From Escherichia phage vB_EcoS_XY2, in sequence record MN927226.1: 44,138 bases of DNA; one strand, 5' to 3'. A program made the translations under genes and the position numbers. Below are positions 20,743-28,751 of the stretch, piece by piece. Every line of letters begins with the position of its first letter. Within the stretch, counting starts at the first letter, position 1. A model generated the notes under the pieces. The model worked only from the letters and a program-made list of their open reading frames with translations. It was not told the origin of the DNA and ran no database searches.

Positions 20743-22143
20743 TTAACCGTCCACATTAAAATCAATACGAGTGATGTACTTGCTACCCCATGCAGAATCC
20801 GCTTGTGGGATGGTGGCGTAATCGCCAACTGCCGGAACAGTTACCACAGAGCCGTCGGAATACATAATGTCGATGCTTGTTGCGCCATTCATTGCCACTT
20901 TTGCTGATGCCGTTGGACGAGTTACCGGTGACTCCTCGGTCACTATCGGGGAGGAGGCAAACTCTGAAGGCTCCATCTGGATTAGGGCTATAATGAACCC
21001 ACTGACATCATCCCCTGTGAAGGTGAGGGAGTTAGACGGAGACAACATGTTTATCTGCGAATAAATCAATCCGCCGGAGTCGTTAGTGTCCGCTGACATT
21101 GAAACGTGATACCACCCACCACCAAGATTGCTTACGAACGACCTTGAGGTGTCGCCTGATATCAAATAGCCGGAGGCTAAGTCAACATAGGCATACTGGA
21201 AATTATCTAAAGCGGCTCGGTTGCCGATGGCTACCGCTGCCGACTGGTACTCATCTGCTTTTATAATAGCACTAATAGAGTATCTTGTTTCTTGTTCTGG
21301 GGCCTCTGCCTTGTTTATATAATGGTTACCTGATACCGACGTTGCGGTTAATTTAGCAGCATAAGTTTCTTGGAATAACGCCAAAGAACTCGCCGTGGTT
21401 GTTGTTCTGGCACGTGAAAATGATGTAGATAGTAAGTTGTTAGAATGTTCTACCACATTGGTAGCAGCCTTTTCCGGCGGCACACGCCCAACTGCAGTTC
21501 CGTCAATAAACGTAAGAGGCCATTCATTAGTGGCGGACTGCACAAGATTGCCGTTGCGGTTGATGTAATAAACCTGCGGCCCTTCATACACAATGCGGCT
21601 ATCAAGAGTCGACGCCAGAAGGTTAATCGGCGGATATCCGGCAGGGCCTTCATTACTCCAGATTCGTGGAAACGTTGATTGCGCGGTTCCGTAGGCTTTA
21701 AGGAAACACCCCAGCCCGTCACCATAGCAACCATACAAATCCGGCAGATTATTGACAAGACACTGGTTCTCGAGGTCCTGGAACGGGGATTTCTCGGCGG
21801 TTGCCGTGAAAGTAATCGTCCAGTTAATGCCGTCTTCGGTGGACTCCGCGATGGTGGACGTGATGGTTACCTGATAATCTTCAATACCCATGCCGAAGTC
21901 ATGCGCCATCCAGAAACTTGACGCGCCGCCGTCCACTTTCTCAAGGAACGACAGGAACGCCTGTCGCCCTAGTGCAGATGTAATCAGGGTTACGCTTATC
22001 GGGAACACATCATAATACGTGTCACGGCCTTGACGCACTCCGCCACCGGCTAAATCTACACTCCAGACGTTGTTGCGTCTGGTCATTGAGTAGCCTTTCG
22101 ATACCACCGGCTTAAGGCTACGTGGGAAATATAAGTCGCTCAT
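20743..22143 (-). CDS. minor/distal tail protein with long C-terminal extension
   Basis: 466-aa ORF directly after tape measure; TAATG coupling. Confidence 0.6.
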   Translation of the reverse strand: MSDLYFPRSLKPVVSKGYSMTRRNNVWSVDLAGGGVRQGRDTYYDVFPISVTLITSALGRQAFLSFLEKVDGGASSFWMAHDFGMGIEDYQVTITSTIAESTEDGINWTITFTATAEKSPFQDLENQCLVNNLPDLYGCYGDGLGCFLKAYGTAQSTFPRIWSNEGPAGYPPINLLASTLDSRIVYEGPQVYYINRNGNLVQSATNEWPLTFIDGTAVGRVPPEKAATNVVEHSNNLLSTSFSRARTTTTASSLALFQETYAAKLTATSVSGNHYINKAEAPEQETRYSISAIIKADEYQSAAVAIGNRAALDNFQYAYVDLASGYLISGDTSRSFVSNLGGGWYHVSMSADTNDSGGLIYSQINMLSPSNSLTFTGDDVSGFIIALIQMEPSEFASSPIVTEESPVTRPTASAKVAMNGATSIDIMYSDGSVVTVPAVGDYATIPQADSAWGSKYITRIDFNVDG

Positions 22144-24455
22144 TATTTAAACCCCGGCGCGTTTCTTGTGGCCTTGCGGGCCTTGCTAATCTTACTGTTG
22201 CTGTTCTGCAAAGATGCAGCAACTTGCTCTTCTATGATGATACGCAGACGGCCTTCATCATCCTGCTCGGTGGATACGTTGCCAATCTGACTCGATGTAT
22301 TATTTACAATGGTAACATTAGATGGGCCGGAAGAAGACCCGTTTTGCCCCATAATTTCTTTCATCTGCTGTGCGGTGCGTACACGTGACGCACCAGCGGG
22401 CATGATAACTTCTGGTTTACCACGTTCAGCGATGGTTGAAGCCTGCCCGGCTGATAACTGTCCGCCCTGTTCACGTGCGGACCTGATAGCGGAAATCTGC
22501 GCCATACCCGCCCCAACGGCAGCGGCGGCAGCTACAGGAGCCAGGAACGGACCAACTACAGGGATAGCCGCTGTGGACTTGTACGCCTCGATAGCCGCGG
22601 TGTACGTGGCGATAGTGGCCTGTACGATAGCGAATGCCTTATACGCGCCAGAAGCCTCGCCCAAAGCCGAACCGATGTTTGAAGCCATGTTACCGAAGGC
22701 GGTTGCCGTTGCGTCGGCACGCTTCGTAGCATACTGCTCATTGATGGCGTTAAGCGCCGCCTGGTACTGCTTCTCACTAATAAGCCCCTGCTCACGGTAC
22801 TTATCCGCTACCTCCAGTTTCTGCTGTTCCTGGATGTCGAGAAGCTCAAGCTCAGTAGCGTTCTGACCCATAATCTGCGCCATGAAGTCCTCGCCTTTCT
22901 GCTGCTTTTCCTGCTGCTCTTTTCTTTTCTTATCCAGTTCTTCCTGTCTGGCCTGCTCGGCTGTGAGCATAATTTGAGTTTTGGCGTTTTCATACTGCTG
23001 CTGGCTTATCGTTCCGGCGCGGTTGAACTCCTCCAGTTTCGCCAGTTTCTGTTCTTCCGCAGCGGTAATGCGCGAAATCTCATCTCCGGTTGTGCGGTCG
23101 ACAGTAGCCAGGAAATCTTCCGCCGCTTTTTTCTGACGTTGTGCCGCTGTTTCTTCGCGTTTGGCTTGTGCCGCCAGACGTTCCTCGTTCGATTTAGCCT
23201 CGCGGTCGGCCTTCTCTTTCTCGGTCTTGTCAATGCGGGCGATGTCTTGCTGCGCTTCCGCGTCGCGGGCCGCATTATACGCGGCTATCTGTTCTTTGGT
23301 GACAGCTTCACGTTTAGCGAACGCCTGCTTATCCAGTTCAGCTTGCGCACGGATACGCTCGCGGTCACTTAAGATAGCGATTTGCTGGTTTTTGACGATA
23401 GCTTCGTTCTGTTCCTGGAATCTCTGCGTTGTTGAGTTGACGTTACGACCAAGATTCTTTTGGGCCTCTGCCGCCGCGTTTGCTGACTTCTCCGCGTTCT
23501 CCAGTGCCGTGGCGTTCTTGTTGGCGTTGTCCGTCAGGCGGATAAGTTCCGGGTTCAACTGTTTTGTGTTACCGAGCCAGTCGGTAAACACATCGGCGAT
23601 GCGACGGGCATTCTCGGCGGTTGGCTCTTTGTTAAACGCACTCTGCGCCGCTATCATCTCCAGCGCCTGGTCACGGTTAACTCCGAACTTACTGCTAAGC
23701 TCCGCGATATTCTGCGCCAGCATGTTGACGCCTACGATGTTGCCCTCGTAAGTGCCGCCGAGTTTTTCTAATGTGTCGCCTACATCTGCGCCCTTAGAGA
23801 CTAATGCATCATACTGGCTAATCGCCGATGCCGTGGAGGCTTTCCACGTTTCCCATGATTCGGCATCTTCACGAACAGCTTTAGCGGTTTGCTGCGCGAT
23901 AAGGTCCGCGTTAGCCTTAGCCAGAGCAAGCTGAGTCTCTGCTGCTTCTCTGCTGATTTGGGTAAGCTGAATAAGGCCGTCTGTCAGTTCAAGAGAACCG
24001 GATGCCGTTTGCTGGAAGGTGTCTTTTAACTGTTTCTGCGCGGCTTCGAGGTCTTTTGAACTGCCTTCTGCTTCGGTTAGCGATTTGTACAGGACACCAC
24101 CGATTGCTGACGCAAGAGCAATTACGGCCCCAAGCACCGCGCCACCAGGGCCGAAAGCACCCGCAAGCTGAGAGCCTTGTTGCCCGATTGCTACGAATGC
24201 AGACGTGCCGGACTGCAACTGGACGACCATGTCCTGCACCTGGAAGCCTACCTGCCCGGCGGCGTTACGGAATTTAGCGAAACCGTCAGAAGCCGCTTTA
24301 GACGTAGCGGAGTTTACTTTATTAACATCCGGCGTTAGTTTGTTTACGGATGTGTCCGCACGGTCTGCGGATGCCGCCATAGCGTCAAGCTGTTTAGCGG
24401 CTACATCAGCGCCTTCTGTTTTTACTCTGGCAATTAGGGAAGCCGTATCAGCCAT
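22143..24455 (-). CDS. tail tape measure protein
   Basis: 770-aa Ala/Gln/Glu-rich coiled-coil ORF after chaperone pair; ATG 24455 with GAGGG RBS. Confidence 0.85.
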   Translation of the reverse strand: MADTASLIARVKTEGADVAAKQLDAMAASADRADTSVNKLTPDVNKVNSATSKAASDGFAKFRNAAGQVGFQVQDMVVQLQSGTSAFVAIGQQGSQLAGAFGPGGAVLGAVIALASAIGGVLYKSLTEAEGSSKDLEAAQKQLKDTFQQTASGSLELTDGLIQLTQISREAAETQLALAKANADLIAQQTAKAVREDAESWETWKASTASAISQYDALVSKGADVGDTLEKLGGTYEGNIVGVNMLAQNIAELSSKFGVNRDQALEMIAAQSAFNKEPTAENARRIADVFTDWLGNTKQLNPELIRLTDNANKNATALENAEKSANAAAEAQKNLGRNVNSTTQRFQEQNEAIVKNQQIAILSDRERIRAQAELDKQAFAKREAVTKEQIAAYNAARDAEAQQDIARIDKTEKEKADREAKSNEERLAAQAKREETAAQRQKKAAEDFLATVDRTTGDEISRITAAEEQKLAKLEEFNRAGTISQQQYENAKTQIMLTAEQARQEELDKKRKEQQEKQQKGEDFMAQIMGQNATELELLDIQEQQKLEVADKYREQGLISEKQYQAALNAINEQYATKRADATATAFGNMASNIGSALGEASGAYKAFAIVQATIATYTAAIEAYKSTAAIPVVGPFLAPVAAAAAVGAGMAQISAIRSAREQGGQLSAGQASTIAERGKPEVIMPAGASRVRTAQQMKEIMGQNGSSSGPSNVTIVNNTSSQIGNVSTEQDDEGRLRIIIEEQVAASLQNSNSKISKARKATRNAPGFK

Positions 24456-25226
24456 CTTCTCTGCCCTCAAATATTCCGTCTAAGCCCATGATAACCTCGG
24501 CTTCGAACAAACTTATGCCGTAACCGGCGACATCACGAAACGCTACCAAATCTTGCCATTTGAGCGCATCGCGCGGGATTATAACGATAGTATCATCTGT
24601 TTCGCGCTGTAGGAATTTAATGGCACGGTATTTCTCGAACACGTCGATAAGAGAAACGGGGCATTCCGGCCCCGTCGCTTCTTTCATCTGCGGTTCTTTA
24701 ATCACGCCCATTGCAATCAAAGCCGCCTGGTGGCCCGCCGCGATGTCGTCGAATTGCTTACGTTTGTGGCGGTCGACAAAGCACCATTGCGCAAATTCAT
24801 ACAGCGCTTTTACTTTTCCGAGAGTTTCTCACGGCTATCGGTGTGATGCTTAACTACGGCCTCTGCCAACCCACTGTACTGGTCGAACAGGTTAGCAAGC
24901 GCCTCTTTGCTGAATGGTTCGTCGAATGACCAACCGGTGACGATTTCCACGGCAAGCTGCTTGTTCAGGTCCATCACCCGCCAGCCCTTCTCATCATTAT
25001 AGCGCGCCCAGTTATTCAGCGCCTCGCACTCTTTATCTAATGGCGCAAGTTCTTCCGTAAGGCGTCGAATTGCCGTTGTGTAGGCACGGCCCGCACGAAC
25101 ACCAGCGTCACAATCGGGGCCGATGACCTGCAACCATTCACCGGAGTCTTTACCACTCGGCAGAAGGATAGGCATTTTAGTACCGGCGGCGTGGCGGTCA
25201 GCAAAATAGAAATCAGAAAGTTTCAT
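24448..25226 (-). CDS. tail assembly chaperone G-T fusion via putative -1 frameshift
   Basis: -1 frame open from 24828 to 24448 with no initiator ATG until 24711; heptamer GGAAAAG at G 3' end. Confidence 0.45.
24810..25226 (-). CDS. tail assembly chaperone (lambda G-like)
   Basis: 138-aa ORF upstream of tape measure; AAAGGA RBS. Confidence 0.6.
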   Translation of the reverse strand: MKLSDFYFADRHAAGTKMPILLPSGKDSGEWLQVIGPDCDAGVRAGRAYTTAIRRLTEELAPLDKECEALNNWARYNDEKGWRVMDLNKQLAVEIVTGWSFDEPFSKEALANLFDQYSGLAEAVVKHHTDSREKLSEK

Positions 25227-25333
25227 TCTTTAATCCTTTGGTTAAGAGGTTACAGGTTAAGGTTAATGCGCCAGACGGGAACCACCCGCTTTTCGTGTGC
25301 GACACTAGGCGCAAACTTATTCTAACACACTAC

Positions 25334-25362
25334 TTGCGCGCCCCAATATAATAGGGTACTAT
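25334..25362 (+). promoter_or_regulatory. early-type promoter TTGCGC-N17-TACTAT for plus-strand island
   Basis: ttgcgcgccccaatataatagggtactattca; near-identical to 34320-34350. Confidence 0.55.
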
Positions 25363-25390
25363 TCACCAGTAACTTACTGAGGGTATAATT

Positions 25391-25717
25391 ATGCGTAAAT
25401 TAGTATTAGCTCTGGGGTTTATGTCTTTTGCTACTTTTGGAGCCCCGTGCGAACAGGTATTTAGTGAATCTGTTCTTATGACTTCTGGTGTGCTCGAGAA
25501 AGCCGACCCTACTATTGTAAAGGCGTTCAAGGACTCTACAGTTCGCGAGTGTGAGGCCGCCGTGGAGGTTGGTAAATCGGGCCTACCCCCGCAGGCCGTA
25601 ACCTACACAGTGATACGTTCGGTAGAGAAAAACGGAGATGCTTTCTATAGCCTACTGACAGCCACCCGTCTGCAAATGGTAATGACAGGGTGGGCGATAG
25701 GCGCAGAAAGTAAATAG
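25391..25717 (+). CDS. secreted/periplasmic protein (108 aa)
   Basis: N-terminal MRKLVLALGFMSFATFGAP signal-like segment, two Cys; GAGGG RBS. Confidence 0.65.
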   Translation: MRKLVLALGFMSFATFGAPCEQVFSESVLMTSGVLEKADPTIVKAFKDSTVRECEAAVEVGKSGLPPQAVTYTVIRSVEKNGDAFYSLLTATRLQMVMTGWAIGAESK

Positions 25718-25782
25718 TTGCCTTTATTTAAAGGAATCCACTGTGGTTAAATAGGACAAATCCTAAACACGAGGAAGTAAGC

Positions 25783-26913
25783 ATGGCCCAGAAGAAAATA
25801 ACCGACGAACAGTTACAGGAAGAATTGAACGCCGGGATGAAGAATGTAGACATCGCCCGTAAATACGGCATCTCAGACCGAGTTATTCGTATCCGTAAAG
25901 CGAAGCTGGCTAAGAAAGGTGTAGGCCACGGGCGTGACGTTAGCCACCTTGTCCCAGACGGCTACAAGATTAAAGGGACGTCGTCTCTGGTAGACGAGTT
26001 CGGCAATACTAAGTTGCAATGGGTTAAGACAGACACCGACGCTGAACGTCAGGTCGAGTTGATGAAAGCCGTGATTGAAGGCATGAAGTCAGAGATTACG
26101 CCAGTTGCGCCGGCTAAAGCGACTCGAGCCAAACGCGACGACAAGCTACTCAATCTTTACACGGTATCTGATTTCCATCTCGGTATGCTTGCCTGGGCCG
26201 ACGAGAGCGGCGACGACTGGGATATAAAGATTGCGGAAGACCTGTTCTCTCGTTGGTTCGACGCGGCGTTTCAGAAAGCACCGGATGCAGGAACAGGAGT
26301 TATTAACCTGCTGGGTGATTTCGCGCACTTCGATAGTCTGGATGCCGTTACACCTGAGTCGCGTCACGTGTTGGACGCAGACACTCGCTACCAGAAACTC
26401 GTCCGCTACATGATTCGTATGGTACGCCGTGTTGTAGATATGGCACTGGTTAAACATAAAAATGTTCGCTTGCTTATCGTACAGGGGAACCATGACCCTG
26501 TAGGCTCTGTATGGCTGGCTGAAATGTTCACAGTTTTATATTCGAACGACAGCCGAGTGATTGTCGATACGTCGCCGGATGTTTACAAGATGGTGCAACA
26601 CGGAAAAACGACGTTGTTCTTTCACCACGGGCATAAGGCGCGATTCGATGCTATCGAACCGGTTATGATTGCCAAGTTCCGCAAAGCGTTCGGTGAGAGT
26701 GTTTACAGCTACGCCCACGTAGGCCACCTGCACCACCAGAAGATTGTAGAAAGCCGTAACATGATTGTTGAGCAACACCGCACCTTAGCGGCGAAAGACG
26801 CCTACGCCTCGCGCGGCGGATGGATGTCAGGCCGTAGTGCAAATGTAATTACTTATAGCGCCGAATATGGCGAGGTCGCACGTTTAACTATTTCACCGGA
26901 GATGCTGGGATGA
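25783..26913 (+). CDS. HTH domain fused to calcineurin-like metallophosphoesterase
   Basis: Ordered motifs SDFHLG, LLGDFAHFD, VQGNHDP, FFHHGH, HVGHLHH after an HTH-like N-terminus. Confidence 0.75.
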   Translation: MAQKKITDEQLQEELNAGMKNVDIARKYGISDRVIRIRKAKLAKKGVGHGRDVSHLVPDGYKIKGTSSLVDEFGNTKLQWVKTDTDAERQVELMKAVIEGMKSEITPVAPAKATRAKRDDKLLNLYTVSDFHLGMLAWADESGDDWDIKIAEDLFSRWFDAAFQKAPDAGTGVINLLGDFAHFDSLDAVTPESRHVLDADTRYQKLVRYMIRMVRRVVDMALVKHKNVRLLIVQGNHDPVGSVWLAEMFTVLYSNDSRVIVDTSPDVYKMVQHGKTTLFFHHGHKARFDAIEPVMIAKFRKAFGESVYSYAHVGHLHHQKIVESRNMIVEQHRTLAAKDAYASRGGWMSGRSANVITYSAEYGEVARLTISPEMLG

Positions 26914-27140
26914 CTTCAAAATACAACCGAACAATGACAAACACTCACGGCAGCACTATGACCGTAGACGTTTACGATGTTCTCCGTGCCTTCGACATCC
27001 GTGACCCCGCACTACAGCACGCATTGAAGAAGTTATTGTGCATGGGTCTTCGCGGGCATAAGGACACCGGAACCGACTTAGCAGAAGCAATTGAAAGTCT
27101 GGAGAAGTTACGGGAGTATCGAAGTAATATTGATGAGTGA
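26910..27140 (+). CDS. hypothetical protein (76 aa)
   Basis: ORF track; ATGA overlap with upstream stop. Confidence 0.55.
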   Translation: MTSKYNRTMTNTHGSTMTVDVYDVLRAFDIRDPALQHALKKLLCMGLRGHKDTGTDLAEAIESLEKLREYRSNIDE

Positions 27141-27143
27141 GAA

Positions 27144-27165
27144 AAAGGCCCCTTTCGGGGCCTTT
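27144..27165. terminator. bidirectional terminator AAAGGCCCC-tttc-GGGGCCTTT
   Basis: Perfect 9-bp stem between island end and major tail gene stop. Confidence 0.7.
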
Positions 27166-27168
27166 TCC

Positions 27169-28335
27169 TTACGCGTAGCTAATACGCTGTATTACAATAG
27201 AAGATTGGTATTGATTGCCTGTGGACTGTCCTTCTATGCTCTGAGTGATTGACTCAGGTCCGCCGATCTCTGGCGTAACCGCCGTGAGTTCTGCGCGTTT
27301 CAGACTGAAAGACATAGCCCCGTTTACCCCCGCCAGAATAGAGTTAATCTCTACCTGCTGTTCGTTGATAAACTTCTGAATCATAGCCATGTCATACAGC
27401 TTACCGGAGATGGAGAAGGTGTTAGCTGCGCGGCTACGTTCCACAAACGCAACGTTAGAGTTGCCGAGTTCGAACTGTGCGGACGCGCTGTTGTCGTTGG
27501 TGATGGTAAGGCTATCACAACGCAACGGCGTAGAGCCATCGAACACGGAAACGTCAACCGAAGAGAATGGCTCATCACCAAAAGTAATAGATGAGAAGTT
27601 GGAACCGGTCGGCGGCGTAGTGAGAATCTCCTGACTGCGACCGATGAATGGGAAGCTGCCGGTTACCATAGCGTTAACTGCCTGCTCAATAGTGAAACCA
27701 GAAACTTCCACGCCTTTGGTTAACGTGTACGCGTCAGTGCCGCCGCACTGGCCTTTGTACCAGGTAAGGATAGAGAACGTCTTACACGTGTTACCGGTTT
27801 CCAGCGTGTCGCCAGTTTTAGCCTTACTAGTTTTTGTCTCGGTGGTCAGGGTGTGTTGGATACCAGCACCAGTAACGACCGTAGCTGTTACTGCAGTAAC
27901 GATAAATGGTTTTGCGTTATCGCCTGTTAAGTCGGTAAACGCAATCAGGTCGCCTACCACAACTCCGTCAGTGATAAAGCTGCCGGTGGCACGTGTGAAC
28001 GTCTTGCCAGCCGGTGCGACGGTAATCGATAACCCTGACAGAGATGCGCCAGCCTGCCACGTAGAGCCTAAAGCCCCGGCTAACCAGTCGTCCTGGCTTT
28101 TAGAGCTAAGCTCAATTGCGTATTCACCGCTAACCTGTTTGTTACCGGTGCGGATGGATGTAGTTTCACGGCTGCCGTCCAGTTCGTTGGAGGTCAGCGT
28201 GTCGCGGGTAATAGCAGGAACGCCGCCAGTGTTACGCAACGGCGACCATACCGGGTTAGTCGGTGTTACGCCCGGGGTAGTTTCCGCCACATAGAATTGC
28301 GCGGTATTCGCGCCCTTAAAAGGAGTTGTAGCCAT
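27169..28335 (-). CDS. major tail protein
   Basis: 388-aa ORF before chaperone/tape-measure genes, followed by strong terminator; ATG 28335 with AAGAGG RBS. Confidence 0.65.
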   Translation of the reverse strand: MATTPFKGANTAQFYVAETTPGVTPTNPVWSPLRNTGGVPAITRDTLTSNELDGSRETTSIRTGNKQVSGEYAIELSSKSQDDWLAGALGSTWQAGASLSGLSITVAPAGKTFTRATGSFITDGVVVGDLIAFTDLTGDNAKPFIVTAVTATVVTGAGIQHTLTTETKTSKAKTGDTLETGNTCKTFSILTWYKGQCGGTDAYTLTKGVEVSGFTIEQAVNAMVTGSFPFIGRSQEILTTPPTGSNFSSITFGDEPFSSVDVSVFDGSTPLRCDSLTITNDNSASAQFELGNSNVAFVERSRAANTFSISGKLYDMAMIQKFINEQQVEINSILAGVNGAMSFSLKRAELTAVTPEIGGPESITQSIEGQSTGNQYQSSIVIQRISYA

Positions 28336-28337
28336 AT

Positions 28338-28751
28338 TCACAGCCTCTTGGTGAATGCAATAAAGTTAATTGACAATGGTCGTTTGGCCCATCCGTTTTC
28401 TACAATCAGCGGCCCCAGGCTAACCGATTGAACCTCGGCGCAGATGTCGTTACGCGAAAATGACTTACCTGCTTTAAACGCCGTGTTAAGTAAGTCTGCC
28501 ATTTTATTGATTGGCGCGCTACCTTTCACCGATGCGTAGTTAATGTCTACCTGATAAATACCAGAGCGTTGCTCAGTGAAGAACAAATCCGCCTGCTCGG
28601 TATCTGCCAGTAGCATGTAACTCGCCAGATACGGCGTATCGGTTGACGTCGGCGCGTCGATGTTTTCAAGCGCAACCTTGATGCCGTTGGCGGTTCCGAA
28701 GGCTACCAGCGGAACATCGAACGCTTTTGTTAAGTCCTCAAAGTAGCCCAT
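28338..28751 (-). CDS. tail completion / neck protein
   Basis: ORF track; TAATG coupling. Confidence 0.5.
   Translation of the reverse strand: MGYFEDLTKAFDVPLVAFGTANGIKVALENIDAPTSTDTPYLASYMLLADTEQADLFFTEQRSGIYQVDINYASVKGSAPINKMADLLNTAFKAGKSFSRNDICAEVQSVSLGPLIVENGWAKRPLSINFIAFTKRL

What the first reader, a model, noticed from the sequence alone, without database searches (positions are those of the whole stretch)
25334..27168. Three-gene plus-strand island inside the tail module: secreted protein, HTH-fused metallophosphoesterase, small protein
Between the major tail gene and the chaperone/tape-measure genes (all minus strand) lies an opposite-strand operon with its own promoter (25334-25362) and terminator (27144-27165). 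Gene 1 (25391..25717) has a signal-peptide-like N-terminus and two Cys. Gene 2 (25783..26913) joins an HTH-like N-terminal domain to a full calcineurin-like phosphoesterase motif set (SDFHLG, GDFAHFD, GNHD, HHGH, GHLHH) resembling SbcD/Mre11 or cyclic-nucleotide phosphodiesterases. Gene 3 (26910..27140) is translationally coupled. I do not recognise this combination as a described phage system; candidates are anti-defence (nuclease or signal-degrading phosphodiesterase) or superinfection exclusion.
Basis: partly seen in the sequence, partly recalled or inferred. Interest (0 to 1): 0.75.

Follow-up and report, generated by a model that had tools for sequence, protein, structure and literature searches.

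The report
Accessory-gene island with conserved phage phosphoesterase
The three genes are real and separately transcribed, but they are not a dedicated three-part system: a widespread, already catalogued, untested phage nuclease-like phosphoesterase is flanked by two swappable accessory genes, one an exported protein that alternates with a superinfection-immunity gene.

Summary
The window is a Kagunavirus-type E. coli siphophage (96-98% identical to phages KMB35 and Bas73). Three plus-strand ORFs lie between the tail-tube gene and the tail chaperone/tape-measure genes. They have a phylogenetically conserved sigma-70-type promoter and a strong hairpin with the form of a bidirectional terminator.

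The interpretation as one undescribed three-gene system does not hold. Across relatives only gene 2 is constant.
- Gene 2 is a full-length member of PHROG 704 ('DNA repair exonuclease', E=1.5e-162). Homologues occur in 2,036 phage records, and a published survey found the gene persistent in 508 of 522 Drexlerviridae.
- All five metallophosphoesterase motifs are invariant.
- The best structural matches are the nucleases Mre11 and PolD-DP1, but they are weak.
- Its neighbours elsewhere are DNA-metabolism genes, not defence genes.

Gene 1 is a narrow family of Sec-exported, two-cysteine, all-helical proteins with no structural match in the PDB. Its slot is otherwise filled by a T4 Imm-like superinfection-immunity gene (98 versus about 350 of 449 records).

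Gene 3 is a small, widespread phage domain of unknown function. It alternates with a phosphatase plus kinase cassette and with homing endonucleases.

Best reading: an early/middle accessory cassette built around a DNA-acting nuclease. No enzymatic function has been tested.

The parts
25334..25362 (+). Sigma-70-type promoter TTGCGC-N17-TACTAT for the island
   Evidence: The -35 (TTGC) and -10 (TA[C/T]TAT) hexamers and the 17-nt spacing are conserved across Kagunavirus, Jerseyvirus and phage Esher4. The consensus match is weak (8 of 12) and the scan did not list it. No transcription start site has been mapped.
25391..25717 (+). Gene 1: exported 108-aa protein. Predicted Sec signal peptide is residues 1-17, with cleavage near TFG|APCE. 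The mature domain is all-alpha with conserved C20 and C54.
   Evidence: ORF. Matches phrog_14165, function unknown, E=1.1e-55. No Pfam, NCBIfam or PADLOC hit. Found in 98 phage records and only 13 matches among 1.84 billion representatives. Signal peptide and both Cys are conserved in all homologues. AF2 model pLDDT 83 and all-alpha, with residues 1-15 disordered. No structural match in the PDB, best E=2.9.
25783..26913 (+). Gene 2: 376-aa HTH-metallophosphoesterase. HTH at about aa 8-44, beta-hairpin at 61-85, helix at 87-104, MPE core at 119-375.
   Evidence: Full-length match to phrog_704, E=1.5e-162. Pfam Metallophos_2 and Metallophos are below their cut-offs, and GerE-type HTH is weak. 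D130, H132, D179, N236, H237, H282, H284, H315 and H317 are invariant in 123 sequences. AF2 pLDDT 78.6. Best Foldseek matches are Mre11 and PolD DP1 at E about 1e-7.
26910..27140 (+). Gene 3: 76-aa protein, overlapping the gene 2 stop codon by ATGA.
   Evidence: ORF. Matches the C-terminal ~70 positions of phrog_2452, 17613, 13223, 18443, 35158 and 23361. Found in 773 phage records, either stand-alone or as the C-terminal domain of 190-250-aa proteins. No Pfam or PDB match. Not homologous to the K1H P-loop protein that fills the same slot.
27144..27165 (.). Hairpin with the form of a bidirectional intrinsic terminator (AAAAAGGCCCC-TTTC-GGGGCCTTTT). It would be shared by the island (+ strand) and the tail-tube gene (- strand).
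   Evidence: Folds at -26.1 kcal/mol, z=-5.15, 0 of 200 shuffles as stable. The stem is conserved in K1H, NTEC3 and Bas73 while the loop varies. Termination itself has not been tested.
24810..25226 (-). Left boundary: tail assembly chaperone gene, divergent from gene 1.
   Evidence: Phage_TAC_4 E=1e-8 and phrog_15027 E=1.2e-65.
27169..28341 (-). Right boundary: tail tube gene, convergent with gene 3.
   Evidence: Phage_tube_2 E=1.6e-37.

Best explanation
The island is a separately transcribed accessory and DNA-metabolism cassette. It sits in a recombination hotspot of the Guernseyvirinae tail module and is oriented like the replication genes, not like the late structural genes.

Its constant anchor is gene 2, a binuclear-metal phosphoesterase with an intact active site and an optional N-terminal HTH. 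This enzyme most likely acts on DNA as a nuclease, in the way Mre11/SbcD or PolD-DP1 do. The likely role is phage replication or recombination, or host-DNA breakdown that feeds nucleotide salvage.

Gene 1 is an independent, swappable gene. Its product is exported by Sec into the periplasm, loses its leader, probably forms a C20-C54 disulfide, and most likely acts at the cell envelope. Superinfection exclusion is the leading guess, because the alternative gene at this slot is a T4 Imm-like immunity protein.

Gene 3 is another swappable cassette: a small, widespread phage domain of unknown function, translated by coupling to gene 2.

Cassette turnover at the 3' end of gene 2 is plausibly driven by HNH homing endonucleases, which are found at that same junction.

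Shown here: gene structure, conservation, family membership, intact catalytic motifs, export signal, mosaic distribution.

Inferred: DNA as substrate, the timing of expression, the envelope or exclusion role of gene 1, and the homing mechanism.
For: Layout:
- The window's + strand carries the island and also the primase-helicase, exonuclease, polymerase, methyltransferase and helicase genes. The structural genes are on the - strand.

Gene 2 as a DNA-acting enzyme:
- Full-length PHROG 704 match.
- Homologues in 2,036 phage records.
- Persistent in 508 of 522 Drexlerviridae (PMC13164509).
- Catalytic residues invariant in 123 sequences at about 40% identity.
- Motif II (GDFxHxD) and motif III (GNHD) have the Mre11/SbcD style rather than the PPP-phosphatase style. 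This comparison is from my own knowledge.
- Top Foldseek hits are Mre11 (E=5e-8) and the PolD DP1 exonuclease.
- Recurrent neighbours in independent lineages are DNA-metabolism genes. In PP99 the order is 5'-3' exonuclease, endonuclease VII, MPE, HAD-PNKP phosphatase, P-loop kinase, DNA ligase. In Campylobacter phage F365 it is resolvase, ligase, MPE. In T1-like phage PHB17 it is dam methylase, MPE. In environmental phages the neighbours include Q antiterminator, NinG, endonuclease VII and HAD_PNKP.
- One precedent exists for a phage MPE acting as a DNase on host DNA (PMC12287305).

Mosaic structure:
- Among 26 Guernseyvirinae-type loci the MPE is always present. The upstream slot holds gene 1 or Imm_superinfect (PF14373, E=2.3e-15; phrog_1039). 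The downstream slot holds gene 3, HAD plus P-loop, HNH plus gene 3, gene 3 plus Rha/ANT, or nothing recognised.
- Collection-wide, the region occurs in 449 records, gene 1 in 98, and the Imm-like gene at >=60% identity in 350.
- HNH genes sit directly after the MPE in NTEC3, L017 and a Vibrio phage, and in Drexlerviridae.

Gene 1 export:
-.
- Distant homologues occupy the same first position of the island.
Against: - No enzyme activity has been measured for any member of this MPE family.
- Structural similarity to nucleases is weak (TM <= 0.42, 12-14% identity). Phosphodiesterases (Rv0805, GpdQ), LpxH, YfcE and Vps29 follow within about two orders of magnitude in E-value.
- Sequence profiles find no solved MPE relative.
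- No Rad50/SbcC-type partner is annotated in the near-identical Bas73 genome, and none appears among the 25 families shown for the 119 scanned neighbours.
- Pfam scores fall below the gathering cut-offs.
- Expression timing is inferred from orientation and promoter type only. The one Kagunavirus transcriptome (PMC12645636) is coarse and does not discuss the MPE.
- The exclusion role of gene 1 rests only on slot-sharing with Imm. Gene 1 has no similarity to Imm and no structural match to any solved protein.
- The 98 + 350 = 448 of 449 complementarity compares totals, not record lists.
Confidence: 0.5

Rival explanations
1. Gene 2 is a signal-degrading phosphodiesterase. It would hydrolyse cyclic nucleotide or oligonucleotide second messengers of CBASS, Pycsar, type III CRISPR or Thoeris-like systems, so the island would be an anti-defence locus.
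For: The MPE fold includes class III cyclic-nucleotide phosphodiesterases, and Rv0805 and GpdQ appear among the Foldseek hits at E about 4e-6 to 1e-5. The island behaves like a hotspot for accessory genes. No activity data exclude this reading.
Against: The neighbours are consistently DNA-metabolism, nin-region or lysis genes, not known anti-defence genes. The gene is near-universal in Drexlerviridae (508 of 522) and constant in Guernseyvirinae, which is atypical for anti-defence genes; these tend to be patchy. A DNA-binding HTH is fused in most members. Nuclease members rank above phosphodiesterases in the fold search. From my own knowledge, the known signal-degrading phage enzymes (Acb1, Apyc1, AcrIII-1) use other folds.
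Confidence: 0.1
2. Gene 2 is an end-healing phosphoesterase (2',3'-cyclic phosphodiesterase or 3'-phosphatase). It would belong to a nucleic-acid break-repair pathway with the Pnk-type phosphatase, kinase and ligase seen next to it in other phages, for example repairing tRNA or DNA cut by host nucleases. This window would keep only the MPE component.
For: An MPE followed by a HAD_PNKP phosphatase (PF25109, E=6.7e-20; PDB Pnkp1 E=1.7e-6; T4 Pnk phosphatase domain E=1.6e-5 and full-length T4 Pnk E=1.8e-4) and a P-loop kinase recurs in Kagunavirus, Autographiviridae PP99 (with a ligase) and Drexlerviridae. From my own knowledge, bacterial Pnkp uses a calcineurin-type phosphoesterase domain for end healing.
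Against: The P-loop partner matches the PHROG 'deoxynucleoside monophosphate kinase' family (E=2.6e-46). The Drexlerviridae survey reads these genes as nucleotide-supply genes. The HAD domain already supplies a 3'-phosphatase, so the MPE would be redundant. The cassette is absent from the window and from most Guernseyvirinae (about 72 versus about 403 records), yet the MPE is retained. No ligase is annotated in the near-identical Bas73 genome.
Confidence: 0.15
3. The three genes form one co-functional system, for example a superinfection-exclusion or abortive module in which the exported protein senses, the MPE executes and the small protein regulates.
For: They share one promoter and terminator, and genes 2 and 3 are translationally coupled. 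The same trio is present in several Kagunavirus and Jerseyvirus genomes.
Against: Genes 1 and 3 are each replaced independently in close relatives while the MPE stays. The MPE occurs in more than 2,000 phages without gene 1, which has 98 records. Gene 3 occurs in hundreds of phages far from any MPE.
Confidence: 0.04
4. Gene 2 is mainly a transcription regulator that acts through its HTH, for example as an activator or repressor of the tail or island promoters, and its phosphoesterase domain is vestigial.
For: A GerE/LuxR-type three-helix HTH is present. There is a weak hit to the PHROG 'late transcriptional activator' (E=8.8e-4). Q antiterminators are frequent neighbours. A conserved intergenic block with short inverted repeats lies upstream.
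Against: All metal-binding and catalytic residues are invariant across about 40% sequence divergence, which argues for a working enzyme. The HTH is missing in Campylobacter-phage and several environmental homologues, so it is the dispensable part.
Confidence: 0.05

Closest known systems
PHROG 704, the 'DNA repair exonuclease' / metallophosphoesterase of T1-like (Drexlerviridae), Guernseyvirinae, Dhillonvirus and Webervirus phages
   Same: Full-length match (residues 3-375, E=1.5e-162). It has 41-45% identity to Drexlerviridae members. The pattern of a variable slot directly downstream, holding PNK plus dNMP kinase or an HNH, is the same.
   Different: In Drexlerviridae the gene sits between the replication genes and the lysis cassette. 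Here it is embedded in the tail module on the opposite strand. The family name is an annotation only, and no member has been tested.
Mre11 / SbcD and the PolD DP1 proofreading exonuclease (nuclease branch of the calcineurin-like superfamily)
   Same: Same fold and the same five motifs, and these are the best Foldseek matches (E=5e-8 to 1e-6). The context is DNA metabolism.
   Different: Only 12-14% identity and TM <= 0.42. No sequence-level match. No capping domain is evident in the model. No Rad50/SbcC partner is annotated in Bas73 or seen among the neighbour families shown. The protein has an N-terminal HTH plus beta-hairpin instead.
Mycobacteriophage cluster-A metallophosphoesterase (A10ZJ24 Gp48, Bxb1 gp47)
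   Same: A phage-encoded MPE with five motifs, located among replication genes. It was shown to degrade DNA and to help the phage overcome host defences (PMC12287305).
   Different: A different family. hhalign of the 123-sequence profile against Bxb1 gp47 aligns only the GNHD motif, with probability 6.8%. It is about 255 aa, has no HTH, and motif I is at residue 10.
T4 Imm-type superinfection immunity protein (Pfam PF14373), compared with gene 1
   Same: It fills exactly the same slot, as the first gene of the island divergent from the tail chaperone, in about 350 related phages. Both act outside the cytoplasm.
   Different: No sequence similarity. From my own knowledge, Imm is a small inner-membrane protein. 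Gene 1 is a cleaved-leader soluble periplasmic helical domain with a conserved cysteine pair.
Lambda nin-region phosphatase NinI (lambda-PP), from my own knowledge
   Same: A phage MPE-superfamily enzyme encoded next to NinG and the Q antiterminator. The same neighbours turn up for this family in environmental phages.
   Different: From memory, lambda-PP is a PPP-type protein phosphatase with a GDxVDRG/GNHE motif style. This family has GDFxHxD/GNHD and an HTH. No sequence comparison was run.

Membership tests
Calcineurin-like metallophosphoesterase superfamily | Five signature motifs with metal-ligand and catalytic residues: DxH, GD, GNH[DE], H, GHxH | tested here: met
   D130/H132, G178/D179, G235/N236/H237/D238, H282/H284 and G314/H315/H317 are invariant in 123 sequences.
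Calcineurin-like metallophosphoesterase superfamily | Beta-alpha-beta-alpha-beta sandwich fold | tested here: met
   In the AF2 model (pLDDT 78.6), all 50 listed Foldseek PDB hits are MPE-fold proteins and 100 hits have E<=0.001.
Calcineurin-like metallophosphoesterase superfamily | Score above the Pfam gathering threshold (PF00149 / PF12850) | tested here: not met
   22.1 bits against a cut-off of 27, and 17.0 against 21.5. This is a divergent branch. Some near-identical cluster members do carry a precomputed PF12850 hit.
PHROG 704 (phage 'DNA repair exonuclease') | Full-length profile match | tested here: met
   E=1.5e-162, residues 3-375 against profile positions 1-389 of 390.
Mre11/SbcD nuclease family | Sequence-level homology to solved members | tested here: not met
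   phmmer and two profile searches of the PDB find no Mre11 or SbcD. Similarity is at fold level only.
Mre11/SbcD nuclease family | Partner Rad50/SbcC ATPase encoded alongside | tested here: not met
   None is annotated in the near-identical Bas73 genome, and none is among the 25 families shown for the 119 neighbour ORFs scanned.
Mre11/SbcD nuclease family | Mn-dependent exo- or endonuclease activity on DNA | not testable with these tools
   This needs a biochemical assay.
Class III cyclic-nucleotide phosphodiesterases (CpdA/Rv0805) | Sequence or fold closer to this family than to other MPE branches | tested here: not met
   Rv0805 ranks 18-19 (E about 4e-6), behind Mre11 and DP1. There is no sequence-level hit.
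Mycobacteriophage cluster-A MPE (Gp48 / Bxb1 gp47) | Profile-level homology beyond the shared motifs | tested here: not met
   hhalign probability 6.8%, with 19 aligned columns around GNHD.
Known anti-phage defence system proteins (PADLOC-DB 2.0) | Match of any of the three proteins to a defence-system model | tested here: not met
   No hits at E<=1 for any of the three. The library dates from 2023 and holds no anti-defence models.
Sec (SPase I) secreted proteins, for gene 1 | Positively charged n-region, hydrophobic h-region, and small residues at -3/-1 before the mature part | tested here: met
   The window sequence reads MRK-LVLALGFMSFATFG|APCE. Homologues show SAIA|G, AKA|T, AGA|S, VAA|E and ASA|M. 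AF2 leaves residues 1-15 disordered. SignalP itself was not available.
Bacterial lipoproteins (SPase II), for gene 1 | Lipobox [LVI][ASTVI][GAS]C | tested here: not met
   The residues before C20 are G-A-P, and proline at -1 does not fit. The spacing varies among homologues.
T4 Imm superinfection immunity (PF14373), for gene 1 | Pfam or PHROG match | tested here: not met
   Gene 1 has no Pfam hit. Its only PHROG hit is phrog_14165, function unknown. The occupant of the same slot in relatives does match PF14373 and phrog_1039.
T4 Spackle-like periplasmic lysozyme inhibitors, for gene 1 (a lead from memory) | Structural similarity to a solved Spackle structure | tested here: not met
   A Foldseek search of the gene 1 model against the PDB gives no hit better than E=2.9.
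Pnk-type end-healing module (HAD 3'-phosphatase plus P-loop kinase) | Presence of the phosphatase and kinase genes | tested here: not met
   Both are absent from the window. Gene 3 fills their slot and is not homologous to them. They are present in K1H, PP99 and others.

The most novel reading that the evidence does not exclude
Two things could both be true. First, the HTH-phosphoesterase, present in about 4% of sequenced phages and core to T1-like phages but never assayed, could be a counter-defence enzyme rather than a housekeeping one. It might shred host DNA to silence defences, as the unrelated mycobacteriophage MPE does, or it might destroy a nucleotide-based immune signal. Second, gene 1 could be a new-fold periplasmic superinfection-exclusion factor that is functionally interchangeable with T4 Imm-type proteins.
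Probability: 0.15. Interest if true: 0.65.

Novelty: new member of a known kind. Interest (0 to 1): 0.3.

Why it matters
The locus is an ordinary, conserved feature of Guernseyvirinae phages, and near-identical copies are already deposited and annotated. Its value is as a pointer to two known unknowns.

First, the phosphoesterase family occurs in more than 2,000 phage genomes and is persistent in Drexlerviridae. It is labelled 'DNA repair exonuclease' purely by annotation transfer. A single biochemical and knock-out study in a BASEL Kagunavirus would put that label on an experimental footing, or correct it, for thousands of genomes. Bas75 encodes a 100% identical protein.

Second, the near-perfect alternation of gene 1 with an Imm-type gene at one slot gives a cheap, testable hypothesis for a small exported protein with no structural match in the PDB.

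The recurrent HNH genes at the 3' end of the phosphoesterase gene may also explain how cassette exchange happens in these therapeutic-candidate phages.

Tried and rejected
- I first suspected gene 3 was a remnant of the ATPase found in K1H. BLASTP finds no similarity, and the DNA alignment shows a clean cassette replacement at the ATGA junction.
- The 'long' gene 3-domain ORFs in L046 and L062 look like over-extended mechanical ORF calls in GC-rich DNA. Genuine longer proteins do exist: SE1 gp79 at 251 aa and an A2.1 protein at 193 aa. They have no Pfam or PDB relative.
- From memory I suspected gene 3 resembled DUF3310. Pfam gives no such hit for gene 3 or its homologues, so I dropped the idea.
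- Sequence searches of the PDB with gene 2 alone and with two profiles gave only weak HTH hits.
- A profile-based homologue search still returned almost only Kagunavirus proteins. Diversity came from querying with a Rhodobacter-phage member instead.
- The search for related loci failed with the 8-sequence alignment.
It worked with proteins from the representative search.
- The T4 Spackle analogy for gene 1 is not supported by the fold search.
- The retron Eco2 paper and the Metis preprint turned out not to concern this enzyme.
- The conserved intergenic block upstream of the promoter does not fold better than shuffled sequence (z=-0.47). Its 6-nt inverted repeats are too short to interpret.
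- The consensus scan's best promoter (25362-25389) was rejected. It is not conserved, and it would place the transcription start inside gene 1.


Full report
**What is there**

The window is a Kagunavirus-type E. coli siphophage of the subfamily Guernseyvirinae. A 4-kb stretch around the finding is 97.7% identical to phage vB-Eco-KMB35 and 96.0% to BASEL phage Bas73. In all, 449 phage records match it.

- Gene 1: 25391-25717, 108 aa.
- Gene 2: 25783-26913, 376 aa.
- Gene 3: 26910-27140, 76 aa.

They lie between the tail tube gene (27169-28341, minus strand; Phage_tube_2, E=1.6e-37) and the tail assembly chaperone and tape-measure genes (24810-25226, 24448-24720 and 22143-24470, all minus strand).

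The stated motifs of gene 2 are at residues 129, 178, 235, 281 and 314. Gene 1 has two cysteines. Genes 2 and 3 overlap by ATGA.

**Regulatory signals**

It is a weak consensus match and the scan did not report it. However, both hexamers and their spacing are conserved in Kagunavirus, Jerseyvirus and a 46%-divergent relative.

The better-looking TATAAT at 25384-25389 that the scan found is not conserved. It would also start transcription downstream of the gene 1 ATG.

The hairpin at 27144-27165 folds at -26.1 kcal/mol (z=-5.15). It has an A-run on one side and a T-run on the other, so it can end both the island transcript and the convergent tail-tube transcript.

The island shares its strand with the whole replication module: primase-helicase, exonuclease, DNA polymerase, methyltransferase and helicase at about 3.5-15 kb. 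The structural genes are on the other strand. This fits expression apart from the late operon, although no start site has been mapped.

**Gene 2: family**

Gene 2 is a full-length member of PHROG 704, 'DNA repair exonuclease' (E=1.5e-162). Pfam's two calcineurin-like models and a GerE-type HTH score below their cut-offs. NCBIfam and PADLOC give nothing useful.

tblastn finds homologues in 2,036 phage records, at 28-100% identity. They include Drexlerviridae, Guernseyvirinae, Klebsiella, Vibrio, Rhodobacter and Campylobacter phages.

A published pangenome survey found the homologous 'DNA repair exonuclease' persistent in 508 of 522 Drexlerviridae. The slot just downstream of it holds an SH3 protein, or polynucleotide kinase plus dNMP kinase, sometimes with an HNH (PMC13164509).

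All metal-binding and catalytic residues are invariant in eight distant homologues. They are also invariant in a 123-sequence alignment at about 40% identity. The HTH is absent from Campylobacter-phage and several environmental members, so it is an accessory domain.

**Gene 2: structure**

The AF2 model has pLDDT 78.6. It shows:
- a three-helix HTH at residues 8-44;
- a conserved beta-hairpin at 61-85;
- a helix at 87-104;
- the phosphoesterase core at 119-375.

The best PDB matches are Mre11 (E=5e-8) and the PolD DP1 exonuclease. TM-scores are at most 0.42. Rv0805, GpdQ, LpxH, YfcE and Vps29 follow.

The viral structure library returns only unnamed or uncharacterised phage phosphoesterases. 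Sequence profiles find no solved relative.

The one experimentally studied phage MPE class is mycobacteriophage Gp48 / Bxb1 gp47. It is a DNase that degrades host DNA (PMC12287305). It is not the same family: hhalign gives a probability of 6.8%.

**Gene 2: context elsewhere**

- Pectobacterium phage PP99 (Autographiviridae): 5'-3' exonuclease, endonuclease VII, MPE, HAD-PNKP phosphatase, P-loop kinase, DNA ligase.
- Campylobacter phage F365: resolvase, ligase, MPE.
- T1-like phage PHB17: dam methylase, MPE, holin.
- Sixty environmental phage loci: of 119 flanking ORFs, 11 are Q antiterminators, 4 endonuclease VII, 4 HAD_PNKP, 4 lysozymes and 3 NinG, plus terminases, HNH and a dUTPase.

None of these points to defence or counter-defence. 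Most point to DNA metabolism or the nin-like region.

**The island is a mosaic**

In 26 Guernseyvirinae-type loci the MPE is always present and both flanks vary.

The upstream slot holds either gene 1 or a 59-70-aa protein. That protein matches Pfam Imm_superinfect (E=2.3e-15) and PHROG 'immunity to superinfection'.

The downstream slot holds one of:
- gene 3 alone;
- a HAD phosphatase plus a P-loop kinase;
- an HNH plus gene 3;
- gene 3 plus a Rha/ANT protein;
- nothing recognised.

The HAD phosphatase matches Pnkp1 at E=1.7e-6, the T4 Pnk phosphatase domain at E=1.6e-5 and full-length T4 Pnk at E=1.8e-4. The P-loop kinase matches PHROG dNMP kinase at E=2.6e-46.

All these cassettes join the MPE gene at the same four-base stop/start overlap.

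Collection-wide counts:
- Region: 449 records.
- Gene 1: 98 records.
- Imm-like gene at >=60% identity: 350 records.
- Gene 3 at >=60% identity: 403 records.
- HAD gene at >=60% identity: 72 records.

The sum 98 + 350 = 448 suggests near-complete alternation of gene 1 and the Imm-like gene. I compared totals, not record lists.

An environmental relative carries eleven ORFs in the same island. HNH genes sit directly after the MPE in three lineages. This suggests homing-endonuclease-driven exchange.

**Gene 1**

Gene 1 has no Pfam, NCBIfam or PADLOC match. An exhaustive search of 1.84 billion representatives finds only 13 matches.

Every homologue has a textbook Sec leader, followed closely by a conserved Cys and then a second Cys about 34 residues later. 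There is no lipobox.

Distant homologues (37-39% identity) sit at the same position, as the first gene of the island divergent from the chaperone.

The AF2 model (pLDDT 83, pTM 0.73) is a small all-alpha domain with a disordered leader. It has no significant PDB neighbour; the best E-value is 2.9. My recalled analogy to T4 Spackle is therefore not supported.

**Gene 3**

Gene 3 matches only the C-terminal ~70 positions of several PHROGs of unknown function. One of them is labelled 'ATPase'.

Homologues occur in 773 phage records. Some stand alone among small early genes, for example Sf12 gp69 and vB_Ec-G8. Others form the C-terminus of 190-250-aa proteins. One of these lies inside the 7-deazaguanine cluster of Nonagvirus SE1.

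The invariant core reads DVY...P..QH..KK...G.RGHKD...D. There is no Pfam or PDB relative. In two environmental lineages a gene 3-type gene lies within 1 kb upstream of the MPE, which is a weak recurrent link.

**Verdict**

The most likely picture is a separately transcribed accessory cassette built around a conserved, catalogued, never-assayed nuclease-type phosphoesterase. On one side is an exported protein that may mediate superinfection exclusion. On the other is a small domain of unknown role.

Confidence in the DNA-nuclease reading is moderate (about 0.5), because it rests on motifs, weak fold ranking and gene context.

A signal-degrading phosphodiesterase (0.1) and an end-healing phosphoesterase (0.15) remain open.

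Novelty is low. Near-identical genes are already deposited, and Bas75 encodes a 100% identical gene 2 protein. The main value lies in the testable hypotheses listed under next steps.

Noticed in passing
window 25262-25315: A block in the divergent intergenic region is almost invariant from Kagunavirus to Jerseyvirus, more so than its surroundings. It contains TGCGCC / GGCGCA / TTGCGC 6-mers in inverted orientation, the last of which overlaps the -35 hexamer. Its GC hairpin plus T-run does not fold better than shuffled sequence (z=-0.47). It could be an operator or the promoter region of the chaperone/tape-measure operon.
   Followed up: partly
L003:4011-4481, L017:6137-6610, L006:5241-5750: HNH homing-endonuclease genes sit immediately after the phosphoesterase gene in two Kagunavirus relatives and in a Vibrio phage. 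The same was reported for 25 Drexlerviridae. The conserved 3' end of the MPE gene may be a homing site that drives cassette exchange.
   Followed up: partly
window 24810-25226 and the equivalent in L001-L033: The tail chaperone allele co-varies with the neighbouring slot gene. A chaperone about 99% identical to the window's goes with gene 1, and a chaperone about 50% identical goes with the Imm-like gene, within otherwise about 95%-identical MPE backgrounds. So the recombination unit spans the chaperone and the first island gene.
   Followed up: no
L095:1919-2674 (Salmonella phage SE1, Nonagvirus): A 251-aa protein whose C-terminus is a gene 3-type domain lies between QueE and the glutamine amidotransferase, inside the 7-deazaguanine DNA-modification cluster. 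It has no Pfam or PDB relative.
   Followed up: partly
window 24448-24720 and 24810-25226: The two chaperone ORFs correspond to the two halves of one PHROG (phrog_15027, positions 1-138 and 170-259). K1H annotates them as a joined product. This is the usual programmed frameshift of siphophage tail chaperones.
   Followed up: no
L098:5001-9102: An environmental Guernseyvirinae-like phage carries an expanded island of eleven plus-strand ORFs at the same site: a gene 1-like gene, the MPE, a P-loop kinase without the HAD gene, an anti-repressor fragment and several unknowns. This shows the site is a general accessory-gene hotspot.
   Followed up: partly
L002:2878-5044 (K1H) and relatives: The MPE followed by a HAD phosphatase looks superficially like the newly described bacterial Metis defence pair, which has a calcineurin-like MisA and a HAD MisB (bioRxiv 10.1101/2025.11.05.686725). 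The phage HAD belongs to the PNKP family (PF25109), not the HAD family cited in that preprint (PF13419). No homology test against Metis proteins was possible.
   Followed up: no
window 25259-25351: Bas73 annotates a 30-aa 'hypothetical protein' on the plus strand here. It overlaps the conserved promoter and the conserved intergenic block, and is probably not a gene.
   Followed up: no
gene 2 residues 136-145 and 184-201 (window about 26188-26217 and 26332-26385): Two loops next to motifs I and II have pLDDT below 50. Yet they contain family-invariant residues: E141, G143, W146, T190, P191, H195, D198 and R202. They are likely substrate-binding or dimer-interface elements specific to this family.
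   Followed up: no
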